A stretch of 24,000 nucleotides of DNA from Nitrososphaerota archaeon (GCA_021159365.1 JAGGRY010000036.1:63861-87860); one strand, 5' to 3'; counted from the first letter of the stretch, positions 2,482-16,546 are shown. The notes: generated from the letters alone by a model not told the origin. Translations and numbers: made by a program.

Positions 2482-3606
2482 ATGAAGGAGCTTGAGAGAC
2501 TTGCCGCTGAACATGCGAGGGCAGCCGTTAGACTCGACAAGGTTGGGATGAAGAAGGAGGCTGCTCAAAAATACAAGGAAGCGATTAGGCTCTTATCGAG
2601 GTTAATCGAGCTCACCGATGATTCTATGATGAAGCAGATCTATATGGAGAAGAAGGAGCAATATGAGAGGAGGATAAAGGACTTAACCGAATCAGTTTAT
2701 GAAGGATTTCGAGAACTCAGCAAACAGGTTAAGGAATCCGGTTTCGCAAAGGATCTAATCGTCGAGAATCCTCCGCCGATAACTTGGGATGACATCATAG
2801 GGTTAGATCACGCGAAGAGGGCGATAAGGGAGAGCATAATCTATCCGATGAAGAGGCCGGACCTATTTCCCCTAGGATGGCCACGGGGGATCCTCTTATT
2901 TGGACCACCTGGATGCGGGAAGACGATGTTGGCGGCGGCGGTGGCGAATGAGATCGACGCGGTCTTCATGCATGTTGACGCCTCTGTGATCATGTCTAAG
3001 TGGCTTGGAGAATCCGAGAAGAATATATCGAATATCTTCAAATCTGCTAGAGAATATGAGGCTCAGGGAAAGGCCGTCATAATCTTCATGGATGAGATAG
3101 ATTCCTTAACGGCGGCGAGGTTGAATGAGGTCGGCGGAGAGGCGAGGGCGAGAAACCAGCTGATAAAGGAGATGGATGGATTATTCGATAAAGGTAAGAA
3201 TACTAGGATCTATGTCCTCGCAGCGACGAATAAGCCGTGGCTCCTCGATAAACCATTCATCAGGAGATTCCAGAAGAGAATATTCATAGGTTTACCCGAT
3301 TATGAGGCAAGGTTGAAGATGTTTGAATACTATGCTAGAAAACTTGATTTAGATGGGAATGTCGAATTCGGGGAACTTGCGAGGATAACGAACGGATACT
3401 CTGGAGCAGATATCTACAATATCTGCATGGAAGTCCAGATGAAGGTTGTTAGCGAGTTCTTTGAGGAAGGGAGTGGAGATGAGGGGAAGCCTAGGAAGAT
3501 TAGGATGGAAGATTTCATGGAGATCATTAGGAAGAGGAAGCCGAGCGTTGATTTAGAATCCATGGAGAAGATGCTTAAATGGGCTTCGAAGTATGGGACA
3601 TCCTGA
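2482..3606 (+). CDS. cdvC: CdvC / Vps4-like AAA+ ATPase with N-terminal MIT domain
   Basis: 374 aa. N-terminal helical MIT-like region (AAEHARAAVRLDKVGMKKEAAQKYKEAIRLLSRLIEL), Walker A GPPGCGKT, Walker B IIFMDEID, SRH region ATNKPWLLDKPFIRRF and a Vps4-type C-terminal helix. Converges on an ESCRT-III gene. Confidence 0.9.
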   Translation: MKELERLAAEHARAAVRLDKVGMKKEAAQKYKEAIRLLSRLIELTDDSMMKQIYMEKKEQYERRIKDLTESVYEGFRELSKQVKESGFAKDLIVENPPPITWDDIIGLDHAKRAIRESIIYPMKRPDLFPLGWPRGILLFGPPGCGKTMLAAAVANEIDAVFMHVDASVIMSKWLGESEKNISNIFKSAREYEAQGKAVIIFMDEIDSLTAARLNEVGGEARARNQLIKEMDGLFDKGKNTRIYVLAATNKPWLLDKPFIRRFQKRIFIGLPDYEARLKMFEYYARKLDLDGNVEFGELARITNGYSGADIYNICMEVQMKVVSEFFEEGSGDEGKPRKIRMEDFMEIIRKRKPSVDLESMEKMLKWASKYGTS

Positions 3607-3611
3607 CTCCT

Positions 3612-4346
3612 TTATCCAACGAGCTGAATCAGACCTTTTTGCTCAAGCCTCTTCAAAACATCTCTAATCTGATCCTCATTTAATCCAAGTTCTCTGGCGC
3701 ATCTCTTGAGATCGAGTTCCTCATCACTGGCCGAGATATATGAATAGACGAGCTTCTCCTCTTCACTGAGCTTTGGAACATCTGGGAATGCATCCTTAAC
3801 TCTTTCAGCGGCCTTCTTCTGAGCTTCCTCTAAGATCTTCGACGCCTCGGCATCCAACTCTTTAGGAACCTGAACGATCTCTTCTCCAGCCTCAGACATG
3901 GATGTGAAATCCTCTATACATGATGCTAGCTCCCGAAGACTTTCAGCCGCCTCTGGAGCAACGCCTCTCACCTCGTCCTCAACCTCCGCCACTAACGAGA
4001 TCAATGGAATCAGGAGTCCTAGAACATCGCTTATCTCGAGAATAGTCTCGAGTCTGAGCTTGACTTGTTCGAGGACTAGTTGGGTTTTAACTATTATTCC
4101 CGCTAATCTCCTTATTTCGGCGATCTCTTCGGCGTAGATTGAAGCCCTATTCTCATCTCCATTCATTAACGCTTGAACTACTTCTTCAAAGTATTCCTTA
4201 CTCCTTGCCACCATTTCACCATATTTTGATCTGAGCTTTATTATCTGGGCGCTTAACTGGTTGAGCGAATGCTCAAGTTTTAGCTTAAGTCTTTCTCTCG
4301 CCTTCTCGTCGAACAGTGATTCATCGAAATCTCCCTGATTAACCAT
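3612..4346 (-). CDS. cdvB: CdvB-type ESCRT-III (Snf7-like) protein with C-terminal winged helix
   Basis: 244 aa. Long helical-hairpin core, acidic linker, MIM2-like FPDVP (3774-3788) and a C-terminal wH (LVYSYISASDEELDLKRCARELGLNEDQIRDVLKRLEQKGLIQL). This matches the Sulfolobus CdvB architecture. Its stop lies 5 nt from the cdvC stop. Confidence 0.85.
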   Translation of the reverse strand: MVNQGDFDESLFDEKARERLKLKLEHSLNQLSAQIIKLRSKYGEMVARSKEYFEEVVQALMNGDENRASIYAEEIAEIRRLAGIIVKTQLVLEQVKLRLETILEISDVLGLLIPLISLVAEVEDEVRGVAPEAAESLRELASCIEDFTSMSEAGEEIVQVPKELDAEASKILEEAQKKAAERVKDAFPDVPKLSEEEKLVYSYISASDEELDLKRCARELGLNEDQIRDVLKRLEQKGLIQLVG

Positions 4347-4463: not shown

Positions 4464-4476
4464 ATTTGATCAAAGA
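4464..4476. repeat. ATTTGATCAAAGA, copy 1 (contains the perfect 10-bp palindrome TTTGATCAAA)
   Basis: Exact 13-mer shared with 4663-4675. Both copies lie in the 358-bp non-coding gap upstream of cdvB. Confidence 0.7.
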
Positions 4477-4662: not shown

Positions 4663-4675
4663 ATTTGATCAAAGA
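4663..4675. repeat. ATTTGATCAAAGA, copy 2 (contains the perfect 10-bp palindrome TTTGATCAAA)
   Basis: Exact 13-mer shared with 4464-4476, 199 bp away. Confidence 0.7.
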
Positions 4676-4704: not shown

Positions 4705-6147
4705 TTAGCCTCTCAGCCCGAAGACAAGCTTCGTCTCTCCCAGCATCTTTAATGGCATCTCCCTAACTTTCACAACTATCGGTAGATCATTCACTATTCT
4801 CCCGATCATTAGACAGTGTCGAGGTGGAAGAGCTTTAGCTATAAGCTTCACGGTGTCTGAGTCTATTCTCGCGGTCTTTGAGATGTAATTTAAATCCGAT
4901 TCATTTGTGAAGTTGAATAGGAATATGTTATCCGCTTGCCTATAGATCGTCTCTGGAATCGTATCGGGTTGATTCGTTACGAGTATTGGGAATATTCCGA
5001 TGTGCCTCATCCTCGTTATTAGGTCATCCCAGTAAGTCTCTCTCAGATATAGGTGCGCCTCCTCCGCTAAGAGAAACAATGGATCTATCAATCCATCTCT
5101 TAGTAGAGTTGAGAGCTTGCTTAAGACATACTCGACCACGATTCTCCTGCCATGTGAAGAGATTTTGGAGAGATTTATCACGAATATTCCACCTTCCTTA
5201 ACCGAGTTTATCATCGAGTCTATTTTTACAGGATTTTCATCGTCGAAGAATCTCGTCGCCTCTAAGCTTAGAAGTCTACTCATTAAAGCATCTCTAACCG
5301 ATTCATGTAGCTGAACCCTTCCTATTGCATCTATCAGTCCTCTAAGGGTAACTTTCCCATTCACCTTCTTAACGAGCCTCCATAATCTGATGAACTCCCT
5401 CAGACTCGTCGCCGGAGTATTTAGAATATATCTCAAGATGTCTGTGATCGTTGCTAAGCCAGCATCTTCCATCGAGACTCTAAAATTTTCTCCAGGAGTT
5501 AGAACTACATGCTTGTCGGCGACATCGCTTAAAGCTCCATCAATTCTCATCGAGAGGCCGATGTATTCTCCGTTAACATCTAGGGCTATCACCTTTGCTC
5601 CATACTCGGCCAAAGATGTTATCAGAATCTTAGCGAGATGGGATTTACCGGTCTCCTTCTTTCCAGTAATTATTGTTAATCTACCATCCAAGTCTTCGGC
5701 GTTTATCGAGATTATTCCATTCATTGATTCTCCTATTATTATCGGTCTTCTACCGGCGGATGATGAGAGCTCCATGATCAATTCAGGCGAAGCTCGCTCT
5801 ATCCTCGATTCAAGTCTTGATGGAAGCCACAGTAGATCATTTCTGAGAGATCCATCCTCAACCACTCCCCTAACCTTCCCAACGATAAGCCTGGAATCCT
5901 TAAGCTCGGTTAAAATAGATCCAACATCATATGGGTCGAAGATCTTGAGCGAGAGGGGCTCAGAGGCAAGTTCTCTTAAGGTATCTTCTAGGATTCCGGG
6001 AAGCTCCGCATAGTTCACATCTAAGATCTGGACGAGTAGCTTCTTGCCTCCATCCGAAACTATCACGTAATCTCCTCTTCTAAGCCCATCCTCACCTGGA
6101 GCCGCCAGAAACTCTATCTTATCCCCATTCTTCGATAAGATCTTCAA
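4705..6147 (-). CDS. HerA/FtsK-superfamily ATPase (HerA-like, DUF87-type) with N-terminal HAS-barrel-like domain
   Basis: 480 aa. N-terminal beta-barrel-like segment (RRGDYVIVSDGGKKLLVQILDV), Walker A GKKETGKS (5641-5664) and Walker B-like PLFLLAEEAH. The TTG start overlaps the upstream stop (TTGA at 6144-6147) and is preceded by GGAGGTGA (6154-6161, 6-nt spacer). Confidence 0.8.
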   Translation of the reverse strand: MKILSKNGDKIEFLAAPGEDGLRRGDYVIVSDGGKKLLVQILDVNYAELPGILEDTLRELASEPLSLKIFDPYDVGSILTELKDSRLIVGKVRGVVEDGSLRNDLLWLPSRLESRIERASPELIMELSSSAGRRPIIIGESMNGIISINAEDLDGRLTIITGKKETGKSHLAKILITSLAEYGAKVIALDVNGEYIGLSMRIDGALSDVADKHVVLTPGENFRVSMEDAGLATITDILRYILNTPATSLREFIRLWRLVKKVNGKVTLRGLIDAIGRVQLHESVRDALMSRLLSLEATRFFDDENPVKIDSMINSVKEGGIFVINLSKISSHGRRIVVEYVLSKLSTLLRDGLIDPLFLLAEEAHLYLRETYWDDLITRMRHIGIFPILVTNQPDTIPETIYRQADNIFLFNFTNESDLNYISKTARIDSDTVKLIAKALPPRHCLMIGRIVNDLPIVVKVREMPLKMLGETKLVFGLRG

Positions 6148-7253
6148 GCGGGCTCACCTCCATCTATTGGTCTGAATAGGAGCCATCTAATCGAGGTAGG
6201 CTTAAAGAGCTTAATCCCCCTTCTCCTCAGGATCGATTGCATGGCTATTAGATCCATTTTATTGAAGGTGCAGAGATCGTGGGCTAGGATCAAGGTTTCT
6301 GGATAACCATAGATTAATGAATCGCTCTTCAAGAGGCTTCCAAGAACATCTCCAATGCTTTTCCTAATTGCTGCGTCGACTCTGAAGCCTTCGCCTCCAG
6401 CTGAGAGTCTCGCTAAATATGTCTCTCCCAAGACTTTAACTCTCATCTCTAATTCCTTGATCGCCCAAGTCATCTCCACGACATATGGAGGCTCTGCATC
6501 GAGTTTAAGCGAGGTTATGAGTTCTCCCCAAACTCTGAGGATGCTGGTCTTAGAAAAGGCGAGAATATCGTTTCCCCTTGGCCTCGCTCCATCAATTATC
6601 CTCGATACAAGCCAAGTTGGATTGTCTAATGGTCCCGCTGAGAGGGAGCCGTCGAAGAGCAATATCGTATCCTTAAATCTCTCAACGGCGTATTCTTGCA
6701 GCCTCTTCTCCAAAATCCCGGCCAAGACCTTTTGAACGGAGTTATAGAGCTGATAATCTCCCCAATAATCTAGTCTAACTTCCCCGCCCAGCATGGATGA
6801 GAGGAGTTCTCCAACTCCATCATAATCTATGTATACCATGAATGGACCGATTATCTCGGCCCAAATTCTCGACCATTCTCGAATGACCAGAGCTCCCCTA
6901 ATCGCGACCACGACCCCTTTAGAGCCCACCGCGACCTTAATCGAGGAAGTATCTATGGCCACAACTCTCCTGGACGCCGCATCTTCAACCGAGACCTTGA
7001 TCGGCTTAACCCCCTCTTTCAAAAGCCTCTCAACTAGCTGAATAGGCCACTCATCTTGAACAAAGACTTCAGAGGTCTCAACCCCAAGCTTAACCCCCTT
7101 GATCGAGCTAAGGCTTCTATCACTCTTCTCTAGGAAAGCTTTAAAGAGGCTTTTAAATCCATTTATTTGGGGTTGCTGGTATTGGGTCATCGCCCCTCTT
7201 CCCACGGGATTATTGGGCTTCATGTGCTTATAAATGTTGCTCAAATTGAGCAT
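6144..7253 (-). CDS. NurA-domain nuclease (RNase H-like fold)
   Basis: 369 aa. NurA motifs appear in order: VVAIDTSS, ILLFDGSL and GYPETLILAHD. Translationally coupled to the HerA-like gene. The start is uncertain: the ATG at 7190 (MTQYQQ...) fits the TATA at 7228-7235 better than the ATG at 7253. Confidence 0.8.
   Translation of the reverse strand: MLNLSNIYKHMKPNNPVGRGAMTQYQQPQINGFKSLFKAFLEKSDRSLSSIKGVKLGVETSEVFVQDEWPIQLVERLLKEGVKPIKVSVEDAASRRVVAIDTSSIKVAVGSKGVVVAIRGALVIREWSRIWAEIIGPFMVYIDYDGVGELLSSMLGGEVRLDYWGDYQLYNSVQKVLAGILEKRLQEYAVERFKDTILLFDGSLSAGPLDNPTWLVSRIIDGARPRGNDILAFSKTSILRVWGELITSLKLDAEPPYVVEMTWAIKELEMRVKVLGETYLARLSAGGEGFRVDAAIRKSIGDVLGSLLKSDSLIYGYPETLILAHDLCTFNKMDLIAMQSILRRRGIKLFKPTSIRWLLFRPIDGGEPA
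7228..7235. promoter_or_regulatory. Shared, near-palindromic TATA element (TTATAAAT on plus / ATTTATAA on minus) between the nurA-like operon and small wH gene 1
   Basis: Located 26 nt upstream of the ATG at 7262 on the plus strand. On the minus strand it lies 37 nt upstream of the ATG at 7190, with a purine-rich GGGAAGAGGGG in between. Confidence 0.45.
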
Positions 7254-7261
7254 GATGAAAA

Positions 7262-7678
7262 ATGAGCGATCAAGAAAAAATCAAGATAGAGGTGGTAATA
7301 GGCCCCGCAACGGTTAGGGTTGAAGCTCCACCAGAAAAGCTGGAAGAAGCCGTTAAACAGGTTATCTCAGCCATTAAAGCCGTTCTTCCACAGATCTCGG
7401 CCGAGGAGCTTGGCCACGTCCAGCGAGGAGAGAGAACTAGGAAGAGAATGCAGCCAACATGTTCCGAGCTATTGAGGGGGTTAATGGAGGAAGGATGGTT
7501 CGATACTCCTAGAACCCTCTCTGAAGTGGTTCAAGAACTCGCGCGAAGAGGATATAATTATAATTCGACAGCAGTATCGCATAGTCTTCTAGACTTGGTT
7601 AGAGAGAGGGTTTTGTCCAGGGAAGGCACGCCGAGACGCTACGTCTACTATAGATCAAAGAAGGAGGGAGGCAATTAA
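7262..7678 (+). CDS. Small winged-helix protein, paralogue 1 (N-terminal beta-beta-alpha module plus C-terminal wHTH)
   Basis: 138 aa. N-terminus MSDQEKIKIEVVIGPATVRVEAPPEKLEEAVKQVI resembles the N-termini of the three neighbouring proteins. C-terminal wHTH-like RTLSEVVQELARRGYNYNSTAVSHSLLDLVRERVLSREGTPRRYVYY. Confidence 0.7.
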   Translation: MSDQEKIKIEVVIGPATVRVEAPPEKLEEAVKQVISAIKAVLPQISAEELGHVQRGERTRKRMQPTCSELLRGLMEEGWFDTPRTLSEVVQELARRGYNYNSTAVSHSLLDLVRERVLSREGTPRRYVYYRSKKEGGN

Positions 7679-8190
7679 TCGGAGGCTTGCTCTCCCATCG
7701 GCTTCTGACCATAATTATCCAGGATATATTTTATTCCTTGAATCGTTATCGCGTAATCTCCTCTATCAAGCCTCTTAAGCATGACTCCTTGAGAGAGTTC
7801 AGCAACCCTATTGGAGAGAGTCTTTCTCTTAATCCTCGGCAGATATTCGGAGAAATCGGAGATGCTTGTATTCGGCTTCTCTCTCCTGCCAAGCTTATAC
7901 TCAAGATAATTTTTGAGGGCTATGAAGTAGACGGCGTCTTGGAATGGGAGTTCATTCAAATCTTTTAGGAAGAATATGCCAGCCTCTGGATTATATGCTA
8001 GATAATTTTTCAATCTCTCCAGCATGTCTTTGAGCTCCACATTATATTGAATCTTCTTCGCGAGCGAGTATTCTGGAATAGCTTGTTCGAGGAACGCTAC
8101 AACTTGATGGTAGACTGCTTCGGGGCTTCCCGAAAATTCAGCCTCCAAGTCCCCATACTTGATGTGTATCTTAAGTTCTTCATCACTCAT
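7675..8190 (-). CDS. Small winged-helix protein, paralogue 2
   Basis: 171 aa. N-terminus MSDEELKIHIKYGDLEAEFSGSPEAVYHQV; C-terminal wHTH-like TSISDFSEYLPRIKRKTLSNRVAELSQGVMLKRLDRGDYAIT. ATGA overlap with the upstream gene (8187-8190) and GGTGAGGAG SD. Confidence 0.7.
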   Translation of the reverse strand: MSDEELKIHIKYGDLEAEFSGSPEAVYHQVVAFLEQAIPEYSLAKKIQYNVELKDMLERLKNYLAYNPEAGIFFLKDLNELPFQDAVYFIALKNYLEYKLGRREKPNTSISDFSEYLPRIKRKTLSNRVAELSQGVMLKRLDRGDYAITIQGIKYILDNYGQKPMGEQASD

Positions 8191-8657
8191 GGCTCCTCAC
8201 CGAAGAGCTCCCTAATCGATGCTTTCGTGAATCCATATAATCCTTCCCCATACTTGATCACTAGGCCGGCCTTCTTAAGCTCGCTTAGCCTAGCCCTGGT
8301 AACCTTCTCATTCAATCCAGTGTAGGATGCTATCTCCTTTGGAGTAAGCTTATCTCTCTCCAAGAGTCCTAAGAGTTTTCCAACGTATGCTCCAGCGAGG
8401 CAGAGGAGGATCTTCCGCTTCGCGCCGGTATCCTCTAACACGCTTATCATCCCCTCCCTTATCTCAACGAGGCCTTCGAGCTTCTCCATCAGCAGATTTA
8501 CATCTATGGCTCCGATGAGCTTCTTAACGGCTTCAATAGATGGATAGATCTCTGATAGATACTTGTTTATGCTTCTCCAAACATCTTCATAGTTTCCGCT
8601 GAACTCCACCTCGGTCTCTCCATGTCTTAGAACCGCTTTGAGTTCTCCATCGCTCAT
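8187..8657 (-). CDS. Small winged-helix protein, paralogue 3
   Basis: 156 aa. N-terminus MSDGELKAVLRHGETEVEFSGNYEDVWRSI aligns with paralogue 2. C-terminal wHTH LTPKEIASYTGLNEKVTRARLSELKKAGLVIKYGEGLYGFT. ATGA overlap at 8654-8657 and GAGGTGAGGAG SD. Confidence 0.75.
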   Translation of the reverse strand: MSDGELKAVLRHGETEVEFSGNYEDVWRSINKYLSEIYPSIEAVKKLIGAIDVNLLMEKLEGLVEIREGMISVLEDTGAKRKILLCLAGAYVGKLLGLLERDKLTPKEIASYTGLNEKVTRARLSELKKAGLVIKYGEGLYGFTKASIRELFGEEP

Positions 8658-9115
8658 CTCTCCTCACCTCTAAACTTGTTCTCAACATGTTTTATCCCCT
8701 TTCTGAGAATTCTGAAGGTCTTCTTCCCCTCTCGTCTTCCAGCCTCTTCCATATATCCATCCTTTATCAAATCGGACATAACATCGCTTAGATTCTTCGG
8801 CATGGGCCATCGAACTCTTTGATAATATTCCTTGACATCGTCATAGGTCATGTCTCTTCCCTCATGTTTGTGGAGATAATAGGCTATGGTCAAGAATCTC
8901 TGCGGATGAGTCTCAGGCTCAAGCTCATCAACATACTCCGTGAAGCTCATCTTTTCACTAATCAACTCGGCTTGTTTAACCGGTTCATGAGCCTTGACCT
9001 TCTCCAAGACTTTATCGAGCCAAGATAGATCGGAGAACTTCTCCTCTATGAACTCCTTATCTCCCTCGATCTCTATCTCCAATCCTCCAACCGAGATCCT
9101 CACCCTGTATGTCAT
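8654..9115 (-). CDS. Small winged-helix protein, paralogue 4 (first gene of the three-gene operon)
   Basis: 153 aa. N-terminus MTYRVRISVGGLEIEIEGDKEFIEEKF; C-terminal wHTH-like MTYDDVKEYYQRVRWPMPKNLSDVMSDLIKDGYMEEAGRREGKKTFRIL. TATA-like element 23 nt upstream. Confidence 0.7.
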   Translation of the reverse strand: MTYRVRISVGGLEIEIEGDKEFIEEKFSDLSWLDKVLEKVKAHEPVKQAELISEKMSFTEYVDELEPETHPQRFLTIAYYLHKHEGRDMTYDDVKEYYQRVRWPMPKNLSDVMSDLIKDGYMEEAGRREGKKTFRILRKGIKHVENKFRGEER

Positions 9116-9138
9116 CCGTGCCCATTTCAGAGTATCTA

Positions 9139-9146
9139 GTTATAAG
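9139..9146 (-). promoter_or_regulatory. TATA box (CTTATAAC on the minus strand) for the three-gene small wH operon
   Basis: Located 23 nt upstream of the ATG at 9115, with no SD. Confidence 0.4.
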
Positions 9147-9152
9147 GGTTTT

Positions 9153-9162
9153 AGAGCGCTCT
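9153..9162. promoter_or_regulatory. Perfect 10-bp palindrome AGAGCGCTCT next to the TATA box on its upstream side (candidate operator)
   Basis: Read directly from the sequence. It is nested in a larger inverted repeat, TTCAGAG (9127-9133) / CTCTGAA (9160-9166), that brackets the TATA element. Confidence 0.35.
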
Positions 9163-9228
9163 GAAAGTGGATATTCGCCCACTATCTAAAGATATAAAAG
9201 CACTAGAAGGGCACAATAACTCGCCTTC

Positions 9229-11139
9229 TCAGCTTCCACCACCTTGGCCATGAATCCTCTCCCTAACCATTTGGTATAATTTTCCGCCGTCGATCCTTCC
9301 CCTATAGATCTTCATGAGTTCCCCCATTATTACGGAAGACGCCTTCCTCGGATTCTCCTCAATCATGGACTTGTATCTCTTGATGAGCTCATCTATTTTC
9401 TTCTCAACCTCACTCATATCCACCGGCCTGAGGTTTAAGGCATCTAAAGCATCCCTAACACTCTTTCCCGGATTCTTGGATAACCATTTAATTATCTCAG
9501 GTGCTGCTTCCTTCGCTATCTCGCCGCCCGCGATCAACTTTGAGATCTCGAAGAGATCTGAATCGCCTACAAGCTCGACGTTGAATCCCTCTCGCTTTAA
9601 GCTCTTCATATGTTCCGCTAGGATTGAGGCCGCTACCCTAGGCTTAACACCGGTCTCCGAGACTATTCGCTCGAATAACTCAACCTTCTCCAAGTCGATC
9701 AATTCATTCGCTATCTGCTTACTCAAACCATATTTTCTCGAAAGACTTTCCGCTACCTCGTCCAAGGTCGGTGGAAGCCTTCGCTTAAGCTCCTCTAGAT
9801 ATTCTCTGCTTATCGGGTATGGTGGTATATCGGTTTCGGGATACATTCTAGCAGCCCCGGGTCTTGGTCTGAGATAAATGGTCGTTCCATCCGATCTCGC
9901 CGCCCTTGTCTCTGAGGGAACTCCTCTTAAAGCCTCAATAGCTCTCTCCTTGACTCGTTGAAGGGCGTCTTCAGCCTTAGACTTCTCATCTGCAACTATT
10001 ATTACGGCGTCAAGTTCACCTGCCTCCATGAAGTCTTTTAATCTCCTCACCTCGGCTTCAGTTATTCCATATCCGGGTAACTCATCTGTGTGGAATATTC
10101 CCTCGACTTCAGACCAAGCTCTAGCTCTTCCAGCGAACTCCGCTCCAAGCCTTATTCCTGGAGCTGCTTCTAAGCCCAGTAATCCGCCGAATTTTCTCAA
10201 TCTTAACGCGAGAACTCTTCCACCTGAATCGATCTTTCTCCTCAAGATTCTCGATCTCGTTTTCTTGAAGATCTCTGTGACATCTTTTATCGGCTCCTCT
10301 GAGATCATCTGCTCCGTGACTCCTCTCTTCTTAAGCTCGTCTCTAATCTTTAGGAGATGGAGTTGTCGTATAACTTCGAGTTCGACCACTTTTGGAAGTA
10401 GATCTAATTCCTGAACTCCCTTAATCTCGATTAATGCTCCATCTCTTATCGAGATGTTTAGATCCTGTCTAACAGTTCCTATTCCACGCTTAACTTTTCC
10501 AGTAGCCCTCAAGAGTCTCCCAATTGCATAAGCAACTCTATAGGCTTCTCTCGGAGAATTTATGACTGGAGCTGTCGAGATCTCGATCAGCGGTATTCCA
10601 AGTCTCCTCAAGTCATAGTGAATCTCATGAGGTTTCCTCTCAATTATCCTCGCAGCGTCTTCCTCGATGGTTATCGTTTGGATGGGTATCTTCTTTCCAT
10701 CAACGATTATCTCTCCTCCTAGCGCAATCACACAAGTCCTCTGAAATCCAGTCGTATTCGATCCATCTATCACTATCTTTCTCATGACGTGGATCTCGTC
10801 AACGGGCTTTGCGTTCATCAATAATGCTGTGACCAAACCCACCTCAACTGCTTCACGATTCAAATCATGCGGCGGCTCTTCATCCATCTCCACGAGACAG
10901 GTGTTTAGGGTGTCAGCGTGATAGACTATCTTCCTACGTTTTCTCGCCTCGAAGATCGCCGCTGGATCGACTTCTCCGAGCTCGCTTTGAGCCTCTCTAA
11001 GCCATCTGACAAATCTTATCTCCCTTCCACCATCGACGAACTCTGTTGGGCATTCGCAGAACAACTTACATCTAGTATCGAGCTGCCTATGGATCTCCAG
11101 CCCAACCTTTAATCCAATTGATTGGTAATCTATCTTCAT
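9229..11139 (-). CDS. gatE: Glutamyl-tRNA(Gln) amidotransferase subunit E
   Basis: 636 aa. GatB/E-type core (GLEIHRQL..., CECP...) with the archaeal GatE insertion and a C-terminal YqeY-like tail. Directly follows gatD (TAATG overlap at 11139). GGAGGTGA lies 12 nt upstream. Confidence 0.93.
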   Translation of the reverse strand: MKIDYQSIGLKVGLEIHRQLDTRCKLFCECPTEFVDGGREIRFVRWLREAQSELGEVDPAAIFEARKRRKIVYHADTLNTCLVEMDEEPPHDLNREAVEVGLVTALLMNAKPVDEIHVMRKIVIDGSNTTGFQRTCVIALGGEIIVDGKKIPIQTITIEEDAARIIERKPHEIHYDLRRLGIPLIEISTAPVINSPREAYRVAYAIGRLLRATGKVKRGIGTVRQDLNISIRDGALIEIKGVQELDLLPKVVELEVIRQLHLLKIRDELKKRGVTEQMISEEPIKDVTEIFKKTRSRILRRKIDSGGRVLALRLRKFGGLLGLEAAPGIRLGAEFAGRARAWSEVEGIFHTDELPGYGITEAEVRRLKDFMEAGELDAVIIVADEKSKAEDALQRVKERAIEALRGVPSETRAARSDGTTIYLRPRPGAARMYPETDIPPYPISREYLEELKRRLPPTLDEVAESLSRKYGLSKQIANELIDLEKVELFERIVSETGVKPRVAASILAEHMKSLKREGFNVELVGDSDLFEISKLIAGGEIAKEAAPEIIKWLSKNPGKSVRDALDALNLRPVDMSEVEKKIDELIKRYKSMIEENPRKASSVIMGELMKIYRGRIDGGKLYQMVRERIHGQGGGS

Positions 11140-12479
11140 TATTCAAGCTTCACCTCCATGCTGGGCATGCTTCTCTCGCCGAGTTCTCCGGCGATGGGCT
11201 TAAGCATGAGTTCCTCAACTTCCTCCAAGTTTCTCGCTCTAGCCAAGCACCAGCTAAGCTTGACGTATGCGGTTTCGGGAAGCATGTCGTCAAGCGCTAT
11301 CACTCCGGCCTTCAATAGATCTCTTCCAGTATCATAGACTCTCATATTCACTCTTCCGAAGATGCATTGAGACGTCATCCCGAAGAATATTCCATCATCA
11401 TGTAATTTCTTGATCGTCGGAATTATTCTCGTGCTCACATGCCCAAGCCCCGTCCCCTCCAAAACTATGCCTCTAACACCTTTCTCAACTAAGAACTCTA
11501 GGATATCTGCATCCATTCCGGGATAGAACTTTACCAGAGCTGCTTTGGACGAGAATCCCGGCTCAAATCTATATTCACGTGATCCTCTCTTGTTCAAGTT
11601 CTCAGAATTCAACTTAATCTTTCCATCCTTGACATAGGCTATTGGAGGCGAATTAACGGATCTAAATGCGTCTCTGCTACTCGTGTGAAGCTTCCTAACT
11701 CTAGTGCCTCTATGAACGGCCAACAAATCATCTGAATGCCAAGCATGCATTACCACGCAGACCTCGGCGAATGGAGCATGGCCAGCAACACGCGTTGCCG
11801 CTATCAGGTTTGTCGCTGCGTCGCTTGATGGTCTATCAGAGGATCTTTGAGCTCCCACGAAGACTATCGGTATCGGCGGTTTTTGGAGGGCGAAGCTTAA
11901 GGCTGCGGCCGAGTATCCCATCGTATCGGTTCCATGGGCTATGATCACGCCGTCAACTCCATCCTTGATCAATCTATCGACCTCTATGGCCATCCTATTC
12001 CAAAGCTCCGGAGTCATGTCTTCGCTGAAGATCGAGAACAGTATCTTTGCATCTATCTCTGCTATATTGGAGAGCTCTGGAACTATTGAGAGGAGATCTT
12101 CAGCGGTCAACGCGGGTCTAACGCCTCCGGTTCTATAGTCTATCCTGCTGGCTATCGTTCCACCCGTGCTCATAATCGTGACCTTTGGAAGACCTTCCTT
12201 GAACTTGGGCTTAGGCGGCGGAATGAATCTAGGCTTCTTCGCGGATGCGATCCTCTTAACCTTCACCTCACCCTCAACTCTTATCCCAACATTGTAGCCA
12301 TTTGGAAGCTTGATCACGATATAGTTTGGATCAGCGAGCTCATATCTCGCCATGAGGATTCCCCTATAGGTCTCATCTCTAACCTCAACCTCGATCTCAT
12401 CCCCGATCTCGACTCCGCTCTCCTTGAGAATCTCCCTAACCCTTCCAGAATATCCCTGAAGCCTATCACCTACGGCCAT
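11139..12479 (-). CDS. gatD: Glutamyl-tRNA(Gln) amidotransferase subunit D (asparaginase-like)
   Basis: 446 aa. N-terminal GatD-specific domain plus an L-asparaginase-type core (TGGTIAS...HGTDTM). Operon with gatE. Confidence 0.93.
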   Translation of the reverse strand: MAVGDRLQGYSGRVREILKESGVEIGDEIEVEVRDETYRGILMARYELADPNYIVIKLPNGYNVGIRVEGEVKVKRIASAKKPRFIPPPKPKFKEGLPKVTIMSTGGTIASRIDYRTGGVRPALTAEDLLSIVPELSNIAEIDAKILFSIFSEDMTPELWNRMAIEVDRLIKDGVDGVIIAHGTDTMGYSAAALSFALQKPPIPIVFVGAQRSSDRPSSDAATNLIAATRVAGHAPFAEVCVVMHAWHSDDLLAVHRGTRVRKLHTSSRDAFRSVNSPPIAYVKDGKIKLNSENLNKRGSREYRFEPGFSSKAALVKFYPGMDADILEFLVEKGVRGIVLEGTGLGHVSTRIIPTIKKLHDDGIFFGMTSQCIFGRVNMRVYDTGRDLLKAGVIALDDMLPETAYVKLSWCLARARNLEEVEELMLKPIAGELGERSMPSMEVKLE

Positions 12480-13828: not shown

Positions 13829-14501
13829 TGGCCTCGAAGAGGACGAGTCTCCAACAAACCCTTCCCAAATGATCGTAAACATAGTCTGAATCCGGCAGCG
13901 ATTTAAGGTGGTTAAGTAATCTGCGAAGAATCTTCCCGAATGGATGGACTTGATAATCTAAGATCTTCGGGATGAAACCTCTCCCCAACAACGCTTGATA
14001 GGTTCTCCCTATGCCAACTAGGGAGATGACTGGCAGGATGAGTCTCCCATTCCTTCTTAGATGGCTTGGAGGCTCAACTAAAACCCTTACCGAGAAAAAC
14101 CTTCCAACAATACCTCCCCAAGTAAATCTCCGCAACTGAATTGGGGATGGAGTCATTGGGGGATTGCAGATTATCAGGTCGAATAACTCACCTCTTACGG
14201 GATTAAATAGGTCTCCAACCCTAAAATCTATCTCAACGCCGTTGATCTCAGCATTCCTTTTAGCGATCTTGATAGCTCTATCTGAGACATCTGTTGCGAC
14301 GACATTCCTCGCCCCAAGCTTCGATGCAAGTATCGCCAAGACCCCTGACCCGGTTCCTAGGTCGAGGACTCTTAAACCGTCTATCTCATGGAGATTCTCG
14401 GCTATAAGCCTCGTTGCAGCCGATGGCATATAGATTTTTCGATCCTTGATGAGCTTTATCTCGATTCCCTTAACCTTGAATGTCGTGATCTTCTCCACCA
14501 T
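13818..14501 (-). CDS. Class I SAM-dependent methyltransferase (HemK/Mtq2-like small MTase domain, NPPM motif)
   Basis: 227 aa. SAM-binding VLDLGTGSGVLAILASKLG, acidic loop VATDVS, and LIICNPPMTP (a variant of the (D/N)PPY motif). Its 3' end overlaps the aminotransferase 3' end by 11 bp. The substrate cannot be inferred. Confidence 0.75.
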   Translation of the reverse strand: MVEKITTFKVKGIEIKLIKDRKIYMPSAATRLIAENLHEIDGLRVLDLGTGSGVLAILASKLGARNVVATDVSDRAIKIAKRNAEINGVEIDFRVGDLFNPVRGELFDLIICNPPMTPSPIQLRRFTWGGIVGRFFSVRVLVEPPSHLRRNGRLILPVISLVGIGRTYQALLGRGFIPKILDYQVHPFGKILRRLLNHLKSLPDSDYVYDHLGRVCWRLVLFEAIKT

Positions 14502-14535
14502 TATCTCTAAAGGATAAATAGCCTCGGTTTATGAA

Positions 14536-15510
14536 ATGGTTATTGTGGAGCCGCCGACTCAGCCCATTGAGGGTTTTTATGTCAAGATAGAGGAGACGAT
14601 CATGGCCGTTAAAGGAGTCCTACAACCTCCGGGGAAAGTGATCGCTCTTCCAACCTACATACTGTTCAATGGAGGCTTTAAGAGAATTAGACGCTTCAAA
14701 GAGTCTTTAGATCATTTCATTAAGAGATATCCAGATTACTATAGTTGGTTTGACTTCGCTGGAAGAAAGTTGCCCGCCCTGCCTCTAAGCATCGTCGATG
14801 AAGTCTATAATCCACTATCCATGAAGCATGTCGGACATCTCTCGCCTGAAGCCGAAAAGCTTAGGAGAATATTAGTTGAGGAATCTGGAGTCGATGAAAG
14901 CTTTGTCGGGATAACTGGATCGATACTCCTTAAAACATATTCACCGAAATCCGATATAGATCTCATAGTATATGGAATTGAGAATGGGAAAAGGATATAT
15001 GAATCGCTGAAAGAGCTTAGGAGAAGAGGAGATTTAGGATGCTTGAAAGATGATTATGAGTTGAGAAAGTCGAGGCTGGATTCATCTTTGCCGTTAAAGA
15101 CTTGGATTGCCGTCGAGAGATCTAAGATCTTAACTGGAACATTTTCTGGAAAAATCTATACAGCGAAGATAGTTCCACTGCCATCTGAATATTGGGAGAG
15201 CTTAGATCAAGAATGCATAGAGATCGGATCAACAGGCTTCATAGGAGAAGTTATAGACGATAGATATTCAATTCTAACTCCGAACAGTTATTCTGTATTT
15301 GTGAGGAGGAAATTGTTCGGCGAGGTCCAGGAGGGCGAAATAGTTGAGGTCTTCTCGATGAGGAGTAGGTTTGCGGAAATGGCCTCGCGTGGAGACTGGG
15401 TGAAGGTTGTGGGAAGACTTGAGCTTGTCAAGCTCCATGGGAAGAAATGGAAAAGAGTATTCCTAGGAAATAATGAGGAAGACGTGATAATCTCACTCCA
15501 CTACATCTAA
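14536..15510 (+). CDS. Predicted Pol-beta-superfamily nucleotidyltransferase, tandem paralogue 1
   Basis: 324 aa with the NTase signature GITGSILLKTYSPKSDIDLIVYG (G-S ... D-x-D). The C-terminal third is beta-rich (EIVEVFSMRSRFAEMASRGDWVKVVGRLELVK). It aligns end to end with the downstream ORF. Confidence 0.7.
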   Translation: MVIVEPPTQPIEGFYVKIEETIMAVKGVLQPPGKVIALPTYILFNGGFKRIRRFKESLDHFIKRYPDYYSWFDFAGRKLPALPLSIVDEVYNPLSMKHVGHLSPEAEKLRRILVEESGVDESFVGITGSILLKTYSPKSDIDLIVYGIENGKRIYESLKELRRRGDLGCLKDDYELRKSRLDSSLPLKTWIAVERSKILTGTFSGKIYTAKIVPLPSEYWESLDQECIEIGSTGFIGEVIDDRYSILTPNSYSVFVRRKLFGEVQEGEIVEVFSMRSRFAEMASRGDWVKVVGRLELVKLHGKKWKRVFLGNNEEDVIISLHYI

Positions 15511-15529
15511 ATATGGATCCAGGGATCTA

Positions 15530-16546
15530 ATGGTTGAGTTGATAAGAGATCACGACTTCCTAGAAACAGCAGATTCATGGATATTCTGCGTCGTCGGAGA
15601 CATTCATCCACCAAATAGATTCTTCTCATACTTGAAGTATGTTCCAGGAACAGGGCCGTGGAGAAGAGAAGGAAAAAGCTTCTCAAGAGTGTTCTCAGAT
15701 TATTCGATGAATGAGTTCAAGAAAATATTAGAATACTTGAAGAAGGTTAAACCGGAATTCGTGGGGTATGACCCGATAATAGGAACTGAGATGTCTTCAG
15801 TTCCAATAGAGTTTGTCAAAAAACACTATAATTGCTTAGAGGGATTGCGTGAACTCATCAAGCGTGGGCCGAGAGATAAGTTGGAGAAACTCACGATTGC
15901 CCTCGTTGAGGAGATATGTGATCACGGGGGTCTCCGTGAAGATGACTTCGGGATAACTGGATCAATCCTCCTCCAAATACATCATGAGAGATCCGACATA
16001 GATCTAATAGTTTATGGGAGGAGAGAGTTTTGGAAGGCGATTGAGATTCTAGGTGAACTTGGCTATCTAGGAGTCAGATCTAGGGAACAAGCTCTGAGAA
16101 GCATGCTTAAACGTTATCCAATAACATTAAGCCACGCCTCAAATCTAGTCGATCGAATAAGGTATAGGGGAGTCTATCGGGGAGTGGAATTCTCAATACA
16201 TGGAGTCAGAAAGAATGAGGAAATTACCGAGGAATACTCTGATAAAATTTACCGAAAGATTGGATTGGCACACGCGATCCTTGAAATCGACGACGCATCT
16301 GATTCATGCTTCAATCCAGCCATTTACAAAGTTCATGGAAGCGCCGAGGTCGGCGGTAAAGAGTATCATGTTGAACAATTAATGTGTTATGATCTCACAT
16401 TTTCGGCAATGTTTGAGAGAGGGGATAGGATTGAGGCTTATGGGAAACTAGAATTTGTAGTGGATAAGATTCGTGACAAAAGATTTTACAGCCTATTAAT
16501 AGGATCTATTGAAGCAGCTGGGAGAGAATATGTCAGGCTAGTCTAG
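15530..16546 (+). CDS. Predicted Pol-beta-superfamily nucleotidyltransferase, tandem paralogue 2
   Basis: 338 aa with GITGSILLQIHHERSDIDLIVYG and a C-terminal beta-rich region (YHVEQLMCYDLTFSAMFERGDRIEAYGKLEFVVDK). It starts 19 nt after paralogue 1. Confidence 0.7.
   Translation: MVELIRDHDFLETADSWIFCVVGDIHPPNRFFSYLKYVPGTGPWRREGKSFSRVFSDYSMNEFKKILEYLKKVKPEFVGYDPIIGTEMSSVPIEFVKKHYNCLEGLRELIKRGPRDKLEKLTIALVEEICDHGGLREDDFGITGSILLQIHHERSDIDLIVYGRREFWKAIEILGELGYLGVRSREQALRSMLKRYPITLSHASNLVDRIRYRGVYRGVEFSIHGVRKNEEITEEYSDKIYRKIGLAHAILEIDDASDSCFNPAIYKVHGSAEVGGKEYHVEQLMCYDLTFSAMFERGDRIEAYGKLEFVVDKIRDKRFYSLLIGSIEAAGREYVRLV

What the first reader, a model, noticed from the sequence alone, without database searches (positions are those of the whole stretch)
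4705..9115. Stand-alone NurA-like nuclease / HerA-like ATPase operon wired to a four-member family of small winged-helix proteins
The NurA-like (6144-7253) and HerA-like (4705-6147) genes are translationally coupled: a TTGA overlap plus GGAGGTGA.

They are not embedded in the classical archaeal herA-mre11-rad50-nurA repair operon. No Mre11 phosphoesterase or Rad50 ABC ATPase appears anywhere in the window.

Instead, nurA shares a divergent promoter region of 71 bp or less with a 138-aa winged-helix protein. That gene's 3' end overlaps a three-gene, translationally coupled operon (ATGA overlaps at 8187 and 8654). The operon encodes three more proteins with the same architecture: an N-terminal beta-beta-alpha module (MSDxELK...E(F/I)xG...) and a C-terminal wHTH.

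Four paralogous DNA-binding-type subunits next to a nuclease plus a ring translocase suggest a dedicated DNA-targeting or DNA-processing machine. Candidate roles are defence, plasmid/virus-derived functions, or chromosome resolution. I do not recognise this combination as a described system.
Basis: partly seen in the sequence, partly recalled or inferred. Interest (0 to 1): 0.78.

Follow-up and report, generated by a model that had tools for sequence, protein, structure and literature searches.

The report
HerA/NurA paralogue with dedicated winged-helix family

Summary
The window comes from a thermophilic Nitrososphaeria archaeon close to Ca. Wolframiiraptor. It encodes a translationally coupled NurA-like/HerA-like pair and four small paralogous proteins with a C-terminal winged helix.

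The pair is a genuine but divergent NurA/HerA subfamily, only about 16% identical to canonical HerA. The link to the small proteins is not local chance:
- Of 80 species genomes found through the ATPase, 79 have the nuclease gene directly upstream. All 71 with enough flank have a small-family gene next to it, divergent in 64.
- Of 62 metagenome loci found through the small protein, 59 have the nuclease.

New here: the shared promoter carries tandem TTG-N2-CAA boxes abutting the TATA box. These are conserved from Caldarchaeales to soil ammonia oxidisers and Bathyarchaeia. They co-occur perfectly with one recognition-helix motif in the divergent small protein.

I therefore read the small proteins chiefly as dedicated autoregulators, not proven subunits.

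The context is chromosomal and apparently vertically inherited, next to gatDE. In some genomes mre11-rad50 follow directly. This points to DNA-end processing, not defence or a mobile element.

Verdict: an undescribed variant of a known system, of moderate interest.

The parts
4705..6147 (-). HerA-like hexameric-translocase-type ATPase (HerAL), 480 aa, TTG start. Walker A is GKKETGKS (162-169), Walker B is LLAEEAH (359-365), and a conserved TRMRH motif lies at 378-382.
   Evidence: Pfam DUF87 6.8e-12. PDB 4d2i HerA 6e-12 over residues 136-472. NCBIfam HerA_Thermprot scores only 43.9 bits against a cut-off of 800. Identity is 37-71% to module orthologues but 16% to a canonical HerA.
6144..7190 (-). 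NurA-like nuclease (NurAL), 348 aa from the conserved ATG at 7190; the ORF itself extends to 7253. The catalytic set is D101/E182/D201/H325 in ORF numbering.
   Evidence: Pfam NurA 24.0 bits against a cut-off of 21. D, D and H are invariant and E nearly invariant in 43 orthologues and 36 database homologues. AF2 model pLDDT 77. Foldseek hits: TdpB 8wfd_G 3.5e-9, Sulfolobus NurA 2ygk 7e-8, T. kodakarensis and P. furiosus NurA.
7191..7261 (.). 71-bp divergent promoter. It holds a single palindromic TATA box (TTATAAAT, 7228-7235) and an abutting inverted repeat TGCTCAAATTGAGCA (7238-7252), which amounts to two TTG-N2-CA(A/T) boxes.
   Evidence: There is one exact palindrome in the window. The block CAAnTTGAGCAACATTTATAAGCACA is invariant in 8 related genomes whose flanks have diverged. 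Tandem boxes sit next to the TATA box in 62 of 79 genome loci. Exact-box density is 4.0/kb in the promoter against 0.33/kb elsewhere.
7262..7678 (+). wA: a 138-aa small protein with an N-terminal beta-hairpin plus helix and a C-terminal winged helix. Its recognition helix is highly conserved (YN(S/R)TAVSHSL). It is transcribed divergently from NurAL.
   Evidence: A small-family gene is adjacent to NurAL in 71/71 genome loci with enough flank, divergent in 64. Invariant residues are T66, C67, H107, R120, G122 and Y127 across 18 diverse orthologues. Weak Pfam HTH_27 and Penicillinase_R hits.
7675..8190 (-). wB: a 171-aa small protein. Order of elements: beta-hairpin (6-21), three helices, a second hairpin (64-74), a canonical winged helix (83-148), and a C-terminal helix.
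   Evidence: AF2 model pLDDT 94.2. Foldseek against PDB matches only generic wHTH regulators over the C-terminal half. The family has 191 clusters at 50% identity, mostly 160-175 aa and full length.
8187..8657 (-). wC: a 156-aa paralogue of wB, translationally coupled to it (ATGA).
   Evidence: BLASTP against wB 1e-11 over full length. Pfam HTH_5 (ArsR) 24.9 bits against a cut-off of 22.
8654..9115 (-). wD: a 153-aa divergent, clade-restricted paralogue and the first gene of the three-gene operon.
   Evidence: hhalign against the wB/C family gives 95.8%, E 6.7e-9 over 138 columns. Orthologues occur only in the window's own clade (14 ORFs).
9116..9228 (-). Promoter region of the wD-wC-wB operon, downstream of gatE. 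It has TATA-like CTTATAAC and a conserved CCACTTTCAG element, but no TTG-N2-CAA box.

Best explanation
This is a chromosomal, apparently vertically inherited paralogue of the archaeal HerA-NurA DNA-end-processing machine. It is kept under the control of its own family of small winged-helix DNA-binding proteins.

Shown:
- NurAL has the NurA fold and the full D-E-D-H metal-binding set.
- HerAL has intact Walker motifs.
- The two genes are translationally coupled and adjacent in every complete locus.
- One to four paralogous small proteins always accompany them.
- The shared promoter carries tandem palindromic TTG-N2-CAA boxes flanking the TATA box.

Inferred:
- A NurAL dimer docks on a HerAL hexamer, as in solved HerA-NurA complexes. 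Together they thread and degrade DNA ends using ATP.
- wA binds the boxes as a dimer or higher oligomer, possibly together with wB, wC and wD. The boxes lie between the TATA box and wA's own start, and directly upstream of the TATA box for nurA-herA. Binding would therefore repress wA itself and gate expression of a potentially dangerous nuclease-motor.
- The conserved N-terminal hairpin-helix module mediates oligomerisation or senses a signal such as DNA damage.
- The cellular role is most likely double-strand-break or replication-fork end resection together with Mre11-Rad50.
For: Family membership:
- Pfam, PDB and fold evidence place both large proteins in the NurA and HerA families.
- The catalytic residues correspond to P. 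furiosus NurA Asp51/Glu105/Asp126/His411 (PMC3300031).

Conservation of the module:
- ATPase-seeded scan of one genome per species: at least 175 relatives in Nitrososphaeria (Nitrososphaera, Nitrosocosmicus, Nitrosopumilales, Nitrosocaldus, Caldarchaeum) and Bathyarchaeia.
- In that scan 79/80 loci have NurAL directly upstream of HerAL. 71/71 have an adjacent small-family gene, 64 of them divergent.
- Small-protein-seeded metagenome scan: 59/62 loci have NurAL and 41/42 have HerAL.

Regulatory evidence:
- A conserved box array lies next to the TATA box, enriched 12-fold over the rest of the loci.
- Co-occurrence of the wA recognition-helix motif and an exact box: both present in 106 loci, motif without exact box in 8, neither in 14, box without motif in 0.
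- Lineages whose small genes are co-directional carry a different repeated palindrome, with an ACGT core, around the TATA box upstream of the first small gene.
- The winged helix resembles MarR/ArsR/IdeR/IclR-type regulators.

Repair link and housekeeping context:
- mre11-rad50 lie directly downstream in L029, L031 and L056. A canonical nurA-herA-mre11-rad50 operon is adjacent in L011.
- gatD-gatE lie upstream in about 40 loci of two classes.
- The subfamily is absent from IMG/VR.
Against: - No binding, expression or activity data exist.
- The box/helix correlation is confounded by phylogeny: the 14 'neither' loci come from only a few lineages.
- Two to four conserved paralogues is more than a two-gene operon normally needs for regulation.
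- In several lineages the small genes are translationally coupled to NurAL by 4-8 nt overlaps (L056, L075). That pattern is also typical of complex subunits.
- The wD-wC-wB operon has its own promoter without the box.
- In two marine loci (L136, L138) the small genes and the box-bearing promoter persist without NurAL/HerAL within 5 kb. The small proteins may therefore have targets beyond this operon.
- Whether this genome also has a canonical herA-nurA could not be checked.
Confidence: 0.55

Rival explanations
1. The small proteins are stoichiometric DNA-binding subunits or adaptors of the HerAL-NurAL machine. They would form a hetero-oligomer that recruits or orients the motor-nuclease on particular DNA sequences or structures. 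This is comparable to the winged-helix gamma domain that loads FtsK on KOPS sites. The promoter boxes would then be only one of their binding sites.
For: - Two to four non-redundant paralogues are conserved over class-level distances.
- Genes are translationally coupled within the small-gene operon. In co-directional lineages they are also coupled to NurAL (L056, L075).
- A conserved N-terminal module has no counterpart among solved regulators.
- Other FtsK/HerA-superfamily motors use winged-helix domains for DNA recognition (own knowledge).
- TTG-N2-CAA occurs 12 times in the window against 4.7 expected.
Against: - No fusion of a small protein to HerAL or NurAL appeared among 191 family clusters. 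The fusions seen are to a Ser/Thr kinase, to DUF488 and to an unknown domain.
- The number of paralogues varies from 1 to 4.
- wA is usually on the opposite strand with its own promoter.
- L136 and L138 keep the small genes without the enzymes.
- No multimer modelling was possible with these tools.
Confidence: 0.25
2. The module is an anti-virus or anti-plasmid defence system built on a HerA-like ATPase and a NurA-like nuclease, like TdpAB, with the winged-helix proteins acting as sensors or regulators.
For: - The best structural match of NurAL is TdpB of the TdpAB complex (8wfd_G, E 3.5e-9, TM 0.57).
- HerAL matches PADLOC mad8 (1.3e-17) and anti-phage HerA models.
- HerAL matches TdpA only weakly.
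Against: - The module is present in at least 175 genomes of the one-genome-per-species scan across Nitrososphaeria and Bathyarchaeia, and never more than once in any retrieved locus.
- It keeps the same housekeeping neighbours (gatDE) across classes.
- No modification or effector gene is conserved beside it. tdpC is needed for the Tdp system (PMC12914056).
- It lies adjacent to mre11-rad50 in several genomes.
- It is absent from viral contigs.
- The small proteins have no strong PADLOC hits; only weak hits (E 2e-5 to 0.03) to the wHTH parts of AbiEi, Csa3, CasR and CARF models.
Confidence: 0.07
3. The module acts in chromosome segregation or resolution coupled to Cdv-type cell division. The HerA-like motor would be the functional counterpart of FtsK.
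For: - In the window's clade, herA-like is followed about 360 bp later by cdvB and then cdvC/Vps4.
- cdvB paralogues lie 6-8 kb downstream in three Nitrososphaerales loci.
- HerA and FtsK belong to one superfamily.
Against: - The cdvB/cdvC adjacency is confined to one clade (17 loci) and is absent in Bathyarchaeia and most ammonia oxidisers.
- The TTGATCAA boxes upstream of cdvB in the window are not conserved in relatives.
- An obligatory nuclease partner fits resection better than segregation.
Confidence: 0.05

Closest known systems
Canonical archaeal HerA-NurA end-resection complex (Sulfolobus, Pyrococcus, Thermococcus; PDB 4d2i, 2ygk, 3tai, 9x1l-9x1n)
   Same: - Both pair a NurA-fold nuclease carrying the D-E-D-H site with a DUF87/HerA ATPase.
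- The genes are adjacent and translationally coupled.
- In some related genomes they are in one cluster with mre11-rad50.
   Different: - HerAL is only about 16% identical to a canonical HerA from the same contig.
- It falls far below the NCBIfam HerA equivalog cut-offs.
- In the window it is separated from mre11-rad50.
- It is always accompanied by 1-4 small winged-helix proteins and a conserved operator-like promoter, neither reported for the canonical operon.
- It coexists with a canonical set in L011.
TdpAB of the TdpABC phosphorothioate-dependent defence system (PDB 8wet, 8wfd)
   Same: It is also a HerA-like hexamer plus NurA-like nuclease outside the mre11-rad50 context. TdpB is the best fold match of NurAL, and the two are similar in size (358 vs 348 aa).
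   Different: - No tdpC-like modification gene is present.
- The context is housekeeping synteny rather than a defence island.
- Distribution looks vertical in archaea rather than patchy in extremophilic bacteria (PMC12914056).
- TdpA is only a marginal sequence match (E 0.013).
Bacterial HerA-NurA (Deinococcus radiodurans, PDB 7f6d)
   Same: It is a two-gene herA-nurA unit not embedded in an mre11-rad50 operon. The NurA fold matches.
   Different: The sequence match is weaker (E 3.4e-4). No associated winged-helix family is known for it (own knowledge).
MarR/ArsR/TrmB-type winged-helix autoregulators
   Same: - The C-terminal winged helix gives weak Pfam HTH_5, MarR_2 and TrmB hits and matches MarR/IdeR/IclR structures in Foldseek.
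- The gene is transcribed divergently from its target.
- Palindromic boxes overlap the core promoter.
   Different: - No family-level profile match.
- A distinct, conserved N-terminal beta-hairpin/helix module.
- Multiple dedicated paralogues at a single locus.
- The operator is conserved across class-level distances.
FtsK gamma domain recognising KOPS (functional analogy only)
   Same: A winged-helix DNA reader is associated with an FtsK/HerA-superfamily motor (own knowledge).
   Different: Here the winged helices are separate polypeptides and no interaction is shown. The only mapped candidate sites are in the module's own promoter.

Membership tests
NurA nuclease family (PF09376) | Profile match above the curated threshold | tested here: met
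   24.0 bits against a gathering score of 21. Most of 347 homologues carry PF09376, and NCBI names them 'DNA double-strand break repair nuclease NurA'.
NurA nuclease family (PF09376) | RNase H-like/PIWI fold shared with solved NurA structures | tested here: met
   AF2 model (pLDDT 77) matches TdpB 8wfd_G 3.5e-9, Sulfolobus NurA 2ygk 7e-8, T. kodakarensis 9x1n_G, P. furiosus 3tai, then EndoV and Argonaute PIWI.
NurA nuclease family (PF09376) | Catalytic Asp-Glu-Asp-His metal-binding set | tested here: met
   D101, D201 and H325 are invariant and E182 nearly invariant in 43 orthologues and in 36 database homologues. The order matches PfNurA D51/E105/D126/H411 (PMC3300031).
NurA nuclease family (PF09376) | 5'-3' exo/endonuclease activity and dimer formation | not testable with these tools
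   Needs biochemistry or multimer modelling.
HerA ATPase (FtsK-HerA superfamily, PF01935) | DUF87/HerA central-domain match, Walker A and B motifs | tested here: met
   46.4 bits against 23.2. GKKETGKS and AEEAH are invariant in orthologues. 4d2i matches at 6e-12.
HerA ATPase (FtsK-HerA superfamily, PF01935) | Orthology to canonical double-strand-break-repair HerA (NCBIfam equivalogs) | tested here: not met
   HerA_Thermprot 43.9 bits against a cut-off of 800; helicase_HerA 29 against 970. 16% identity to the canonical HerA of L011. It is a separate subfamily.
HerA ATPase (FtsK-HerA superfamily, PF01935) | N-terminal HAS barrel that docks NurA | not tested
   The PDB sequence match starts at residue 136. 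No model of HerAL was made.
Classical herA-mre11-rad50-nurA operon | All four genes clustered | tested here: not met
   No Mre11 or Rad50 in the 24-kb window. Related loci L029, L031 and L056 do have mre11-rad50 directly downstream of the same subfamily.
TdpABC-type or other HerA-based defence systems | Linked modification/effector gene; patchy, island-like distribution | tested here: not met
   The conserved partners are only the small winged-helix genes. Neighbours are gatDE, cdvBC or enolase. The subfamily is absent from IMG/VR.
Winged-helix transcription regulators | wHTH fold | tested here: met
   wB AF2 model, pLDDT 94, shows a canonical H-H-H-hairpin at 83-148. Foldseek matches MarR, IdeR, IclR and PhiH1 repressor. 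wC passes the Pfam HTH_5 threshold.
Winged-helix transcription regulators | Cognate palindromic operator at the regulated promoter | tested here: inconclusive
   A conserved TTG-N2-CAA array lies next to the TATA box and co-occurs with the wA recognition-helix motif. Binding itself is not shown.
Tandem winged-helix structural proteins (ESCRT-II subunits, kite proteins such as ScpB) | Sequence or fold similarity over two winged-helix domains | tested here: not met
   No Pfam hit to ScpB or ESCRT-II families at E<=1. No such structure among the 50 best-ranked Foldseek PDB matches listed, of 771 at E<=10. Considered only because of the cdvB/cdvC neighbours.

The most novel reading that the evidence does not exclude
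The paralogous small proteins assemble into a hetero-oligomeric, sequence-reading adaptor that physically loads or orients the HerA-like motor and NurA-like nuclease at TTG-N2-CAA-type sites. That would make a sequence-guided nuclease-translocase, an FtsK-gamma/KOPS-like principle in archaeal DNA processing. The promoter boxes would provide built-in feedback.
Probability: 0.15. Interest if true: 0.8.

Novelty: new variant of a known kind. Interest (0 to 1): 0.55.

Why it matters
Ammonia-oxidising archaea and Bathyarchaeia are among the most abundant archaea on Earth, yet almost nothing is known about how they control DNA repair.

This locus offers a concrete, testable regulatory circuit. It comprises an undescribed winged-helix family, a short operator conserved across class-level distances, and a defined target, a HerA/NurA paralogue.

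It also shows that what genome papers list simply as 'HerA-NurA' in these lineages is a distinct subfamily that can coexist with the canonical pair. This bears on how many end-resection machines archaea have and what each one does.

If the small proteins turn out to be subunits rather than regulators, this would be a new way of targeting a HerA-type motor.

Tried and rejected
- ESCRT-II-like or kite-like tandem winged-helix idea, prompted by the cdvB/cdvC neighbours. There is no profile or fold support, and the cdv adjacency is confined to one clade.
- Shared regulation of cdvB. Two TCTTTGATCAAAT copies lie upstream of cdvB in the window (4466, 4665), but they are not conserved in relatives.
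- A common operator for the wD-wC-wB operon. Its promoter has different conserved elements and no TTG-N2-CAA box.
- Extra module genes in the 1-3 kb gaps seen in Bathyarchaeia loci. These hold unrelated genes: a channel-like membrane protein, a low-molecular-weight phosphatase-like protein and others, judged by eye from their sequences with no profile search run.
- Locus search with the 76-sequence small-protein alignment failed because no conserved stretch was available.
It was rerun with database homologues.
- Iyer et al. 2004 on the FtsK-HerA superfamily is not held in the library.
- A literature search for COG2380/COG0433/COG1630 gave nothing relevant.
- Whether the window's own genome has a canonical herA-nurA-mre11-rad50 locus could not be tested. 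Only 24 kb, plus flanks of related contigs, were accessible.

Full report
**What is in the window.** The 24-kb window is ordinary chromosomal DNA of a thermophilic Nitrososphaeria archaeon. Proteins at least 90% identical are recorded from Ca. Wolframiiraptor and from 'Thaumarchaeota/Nitrososphaerota' metagenome-assembled genomes.

On the minus strand, in order of transcription:
- gatD and gatE (12479-9229)
- three small genes: wD 9115-8654, wC 8657-8187, wB 8190-7675
- a NurA-like gene (ORF 7253-6144)
- a HerA-like gene (6147-4705)
- cdvB (4346-3612)

On the plus strand, wA (7262-7678) is transcribed divergently from the NurA-like gene, and cdvC/Vps4 lies at 2482-3606.

- TTGA overlap with GGAGGTGA upstream
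- two ATGA overlaps
- a 4-nt convergent overlap of wA and wB

No Mre11 or Rad50 is encoded in the window.

**The two enzymes.** The 480-aa protein matches Pfam DUF87 (HerA central domain; 46 bits against a cut-off of 23) and Sulfolobus HerA 4d2i (6e-12). Its Walker A (GKKETGKS) and Walker B (AEEAH) motifs are invariant.

It is not an orthologue of canonical HerA. It scores 44 bits against an NCBIfam cut-off of 800. It is 16% identical to the canonical HerA that sits on the same contig as a module orthologue, against 37-71% among module members.

The NurA-like protein passes the Pfam NurA threshold, 24 against 21. Across 43 orthologues and 36 database homologues, D101, D201 and H325 are invariant and E182 nearly so. 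This is the same ordered Asp-Glu-Asp-His set that binds manganese in P. furiosus NurA (PMC3300031).

An AlphaFold model (pLDDT 77) finds the following in the PDB, in order: TdpB of TdpAB (3.5e-9, TM 0.57), Sulfolobus NurA (7e-8), the T. kodakarensis HerA-NurA complex, P. furiosus and Deinococcus NurA, then EndoV and Argonaute PIWI domains.

NCBI already names many members 'DNA double-strand break repair nuclease NurA', including one in Ca. Nitrososphaera gargensis.

**The small proteins.** wB and wC are clear paralogues (1e-11 over full length). wA and wD join at profile level:
- hhalign wA-type vs wB/C-type: 96.4%, E 1.2e-9
- hhalign wD-type vs wB/C-type: 95.8%, E 6.7e-9
- jackhmmer runs started from wA, wB or wC converge on the same ORF set

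A wB model (pLDDT 94) has, in order:
- a beta-hairpin
- three helices
- a second hairpin
- a canonical winged helix
- a terminal helix

Only the winged helix has solved analogues, namely MarR, IdeR, IclR and PhiH1-repressor types, with best E 0.0085.

No curated family covers these proteins, and only wC passes the ArsR HTH_5 threshold. A profile search of 1.84 billion representative proteins finds 191 clusters, mostly 160-175 aa. Rare fusions join the family to a Ser/Thr kinase, to DUF488 and to an unknown N-terminal domain. All public names are 'hypothetical protein'.

**Is the association conserved?** It is, in both search directions.

Seeded with the ATPase, a scan of one genome per GTDB species returned at least 175 relatives. 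The 80 best come from Nitrososphaera, Nitrosocosmicus, Nitrosopumilales, Nitrosocaldus, Caldarchaeum, Hecatellales, Methylarchaceae and many Bathyarchaeia.
- In 79 of 80 the NurA-like gene lies directly upstream. The exception is a truncated contig.
- In 71 of 71 with at least 600 bp of flank, a small-family gene is adjacent to it. It is divergent in 64 and co-directional in 7.
- One to four small genes lie within 5 kb.

Seeded instead with the wA-type protein, a metagenome scan gave 526 relatives.
- Of the best 80 loci, 59 of 62 with enough flank have the divergent NurA-like gene.
- 41 of 42 with enough flank have the ATPase.

Contexts fetched for distant wB relatives agree, even where the flanks differ (enolase and topoisomerase VI instead of gatDE and cdv).

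The minimal form, seen in soil ammonia oxidisers, is wB, wA (opposite strand), NurAL, HerAL. It is present in a contig carrying a protein identical to Ca. N. gargensis NurA.

**A conserved operator-like promoter (new here).** Between wA and the NurA-like gene, the window has one palindromic TATA box (7228-7235) abutted by the inverted repeat TGCTCAAATTGAGCA (7238-7252). This is the only exact copy in the window.

In eight genomes of the clade the block CAAnTTGAGCAACATTTATAAGCACA is invariant while the flanking codons have diverged. A conserved ATG about 40 nt downstream marks the likely true start of the nuclease gene, at 7190.

Across the whole distribution the same architecture recurs:
- Two or three tandem TTG-N2-CA(A/T) boxes, about one helical turn apart, lie directly upstream of the TATA box.
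- Further boxes lie near the nuclease start. In ammonia oxidisers the pattern is ...catgTTGCGCAAtATTAATATA...attgTTGAACAAcATG.

Exact boxes occur at 4.0 per kb in this region against 0.33 per kb elsewhere in the same loci, and 61 of 73 loci have at least one.

wA has an unusually conserved recognition helix (Y-D-R-T-A-V-S-H-x-L). Presence of that motif and of an exact box go together:

| wA recognition-helix motif | Exact box | Loci |
|---|---|---|
| present | present | 106 |
| present | absent | 8 |
| absent | absent | 14 |
| absent | present | 0 |

. These counts are not phylogenetically independent.

Lineages in which the small genes are co-directional with the enzymes lack both the motif and the box. 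Instead they show repeated ACGT-core palindromes around the TATA box upstream of the first small gene.

For wA the boxes lie between the TATA box and the start of a probably leaderless transcript. For nurA-herA they lie where a bound protein would touch the BRE/TATA region. The simplest reading is autoregulation of wA and gating of the enzyme operon.

**What the module does.** The context argues for a housekeeping DNA-processing role.
- gatD-gatE lie upstream in the same orientation in about 40 loci of two classes.
- Identity falls with taxonomic distance.
- The subfamily is absent from 2.9 million viral contigs, which hold only distant partial ATPase matches.

Mre11-Rad50 follow the ATPase directly in L029, L031 and L056, with E-values of 1e-120 to 1e-194. 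In L011 a canonical nurA-herA-mre11-rad50 operon follows immediately, and in L038 a canonical herA and mre11 lie 2.5 kb away.

The variant is therefore a paralogue that can coexist with the canonical pair, and it is genomically tied to the double-strand-break machinery. I infer a HerA6-NurA2-type complex that resects DNA ends.

I consider defence unlikely, despite the TdpB fold match and PADLOC HerA/mad8 hits. No modification or effector partner is conserved, and tdpC is required for Tdp (PMC12914056).

A role coupled to Cdv cell division rests only on clade-restricted adjacency to cdvB/cdvC.

**What remains open.** It is unresolved whether wB, wC and wD are co-regulators, sensors, or physical partners of the enzymes.
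- Pointing beyond a simple repressor: the multiplicity of paralogues, their conservation, and translational coupling to NurAL in some lineages.
- Pointing away from obligate subunits: no fusions to the enzymes, variable copy number, the opposite-strand wA, and two marine loci that keep three small genes and the box-bearing promoter but have an 86-aa ORF in place of the enzymes.

I could not run multimer predictions. I also could not check whether the window's own genome has a canonical herA-nurA-mre11-rad50 locus.

The enzymes are members of known families. The dedicated winged-helix family and its deeply conserved operator are, as far as the held literature shows, undescribed. I rate it a new variant of a known kind, interest 0.55.

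Noticed in passing
window 2482-3606 (+) and 3612-4346 (-): cdvC/Vps4 (NCBIfam CdvC 3e-145) and cdvB (7e-39, full length including the C-terminal winged helix) lie immediately downstream of the herA-like gene. This adjacency is conserved in 17 loci of the window's clade only. cdvB paralogues lie 6-8 kb downstream in three Nitrososphaerales loci.
   Followed up: partly
window 9229-12479 (-); loci L024-L094: gatD-gatE sit directly upstream of the small-protein genes, in the same orientation, in about 40 loci spanning Nitrososphaeria and Bathyarchaeia. This is unusually deep synteny between a tRNA-amidotransferase operon and a DNA-processing module. The reason is unknown.
   Followed up: partly
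window 9116-9228 (-); L007, L015, L016, L019: The promoter of the wD-wC-wB operon has a conserved CCACTTTCA(G) element about 20 nt upstream of the TATA box. It contains ACTTTC, which fits the ANTTTC hexamer reported for Orc1-2-dependent DNA-damage promoters in Sulfolobales (own recollection, not checked in a paper).
   Followed up: no
L136 4600-6435 and L138 (metagenome contigs, low G+C, marine-type): Three small-family genes in tandem keep the TTG-N2-CAA/TATA promoter, but an 86-aa ORF lies where the NurA-like gene would start. No NurA-like or HerA-like gene lies within 5 kb. The enzymes were either lost or relocated.
   Followed up: partly
window 4466-4473 and 4665-4672: Two identical TCTTTGATCAAAT copies, each a perfect TTGATCAA box, lie 199 nt apart in the herA-like/cdvB intergenic region. 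They are not conserved in related genomes.
   Followed up: yes
window, whole: TTGNNCAA occurs 12 times against 4.7 +/- 2.4 expected from dinucleotide shuffles (0 of 100 shuffles reach 12). Most copies are inside coding sequence. Codon effects were not controlled.
   Followed up: no
proteins P0058, P0157, P0106, P0138 (representative-library hits): The small-protein family occurs fused to other domains. One fusion has a Ser/Thr protein kinase with two tandem copies of the C-terminal two-thirds. Another is to DUF488. A third is to an unannotated ~200-aa N-terminal domain. Their genomic contexts could not be fetched.
   Followed up: partly
window 7262-7678 (wA), residues T66, C67, H107: A Thr-Cys pair at the start of the winged helix and a His in the recognition helix are invariant in 18 diverse wA orthologues. 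Most non-Caldarchaeales members have a further Cys in the N-terminal hairpin (WEVEIxC). This could be a redox or metal-sensing site.
   Followed up: no
L191 (contig carrying a protein identical to Ca. N. gargensis NurA) 14140-17020: Hel308-type helicase and MCM genes lie 4-6 kb downstream of the module in this soil ammonia-oxidiser locus.
   Followed up: no
window 14536-15510 and 15530-16546 (+): Two adjacent genes of similar size (324 and 338 aa) each have a weak nucleotidyltransferase (NTP_transf_2) match. They lie next to a 531-aa protein with a weak Kdo/WaaP-type kinase match (16543-18138). All are otherwise unannotated.
   Followed up: no
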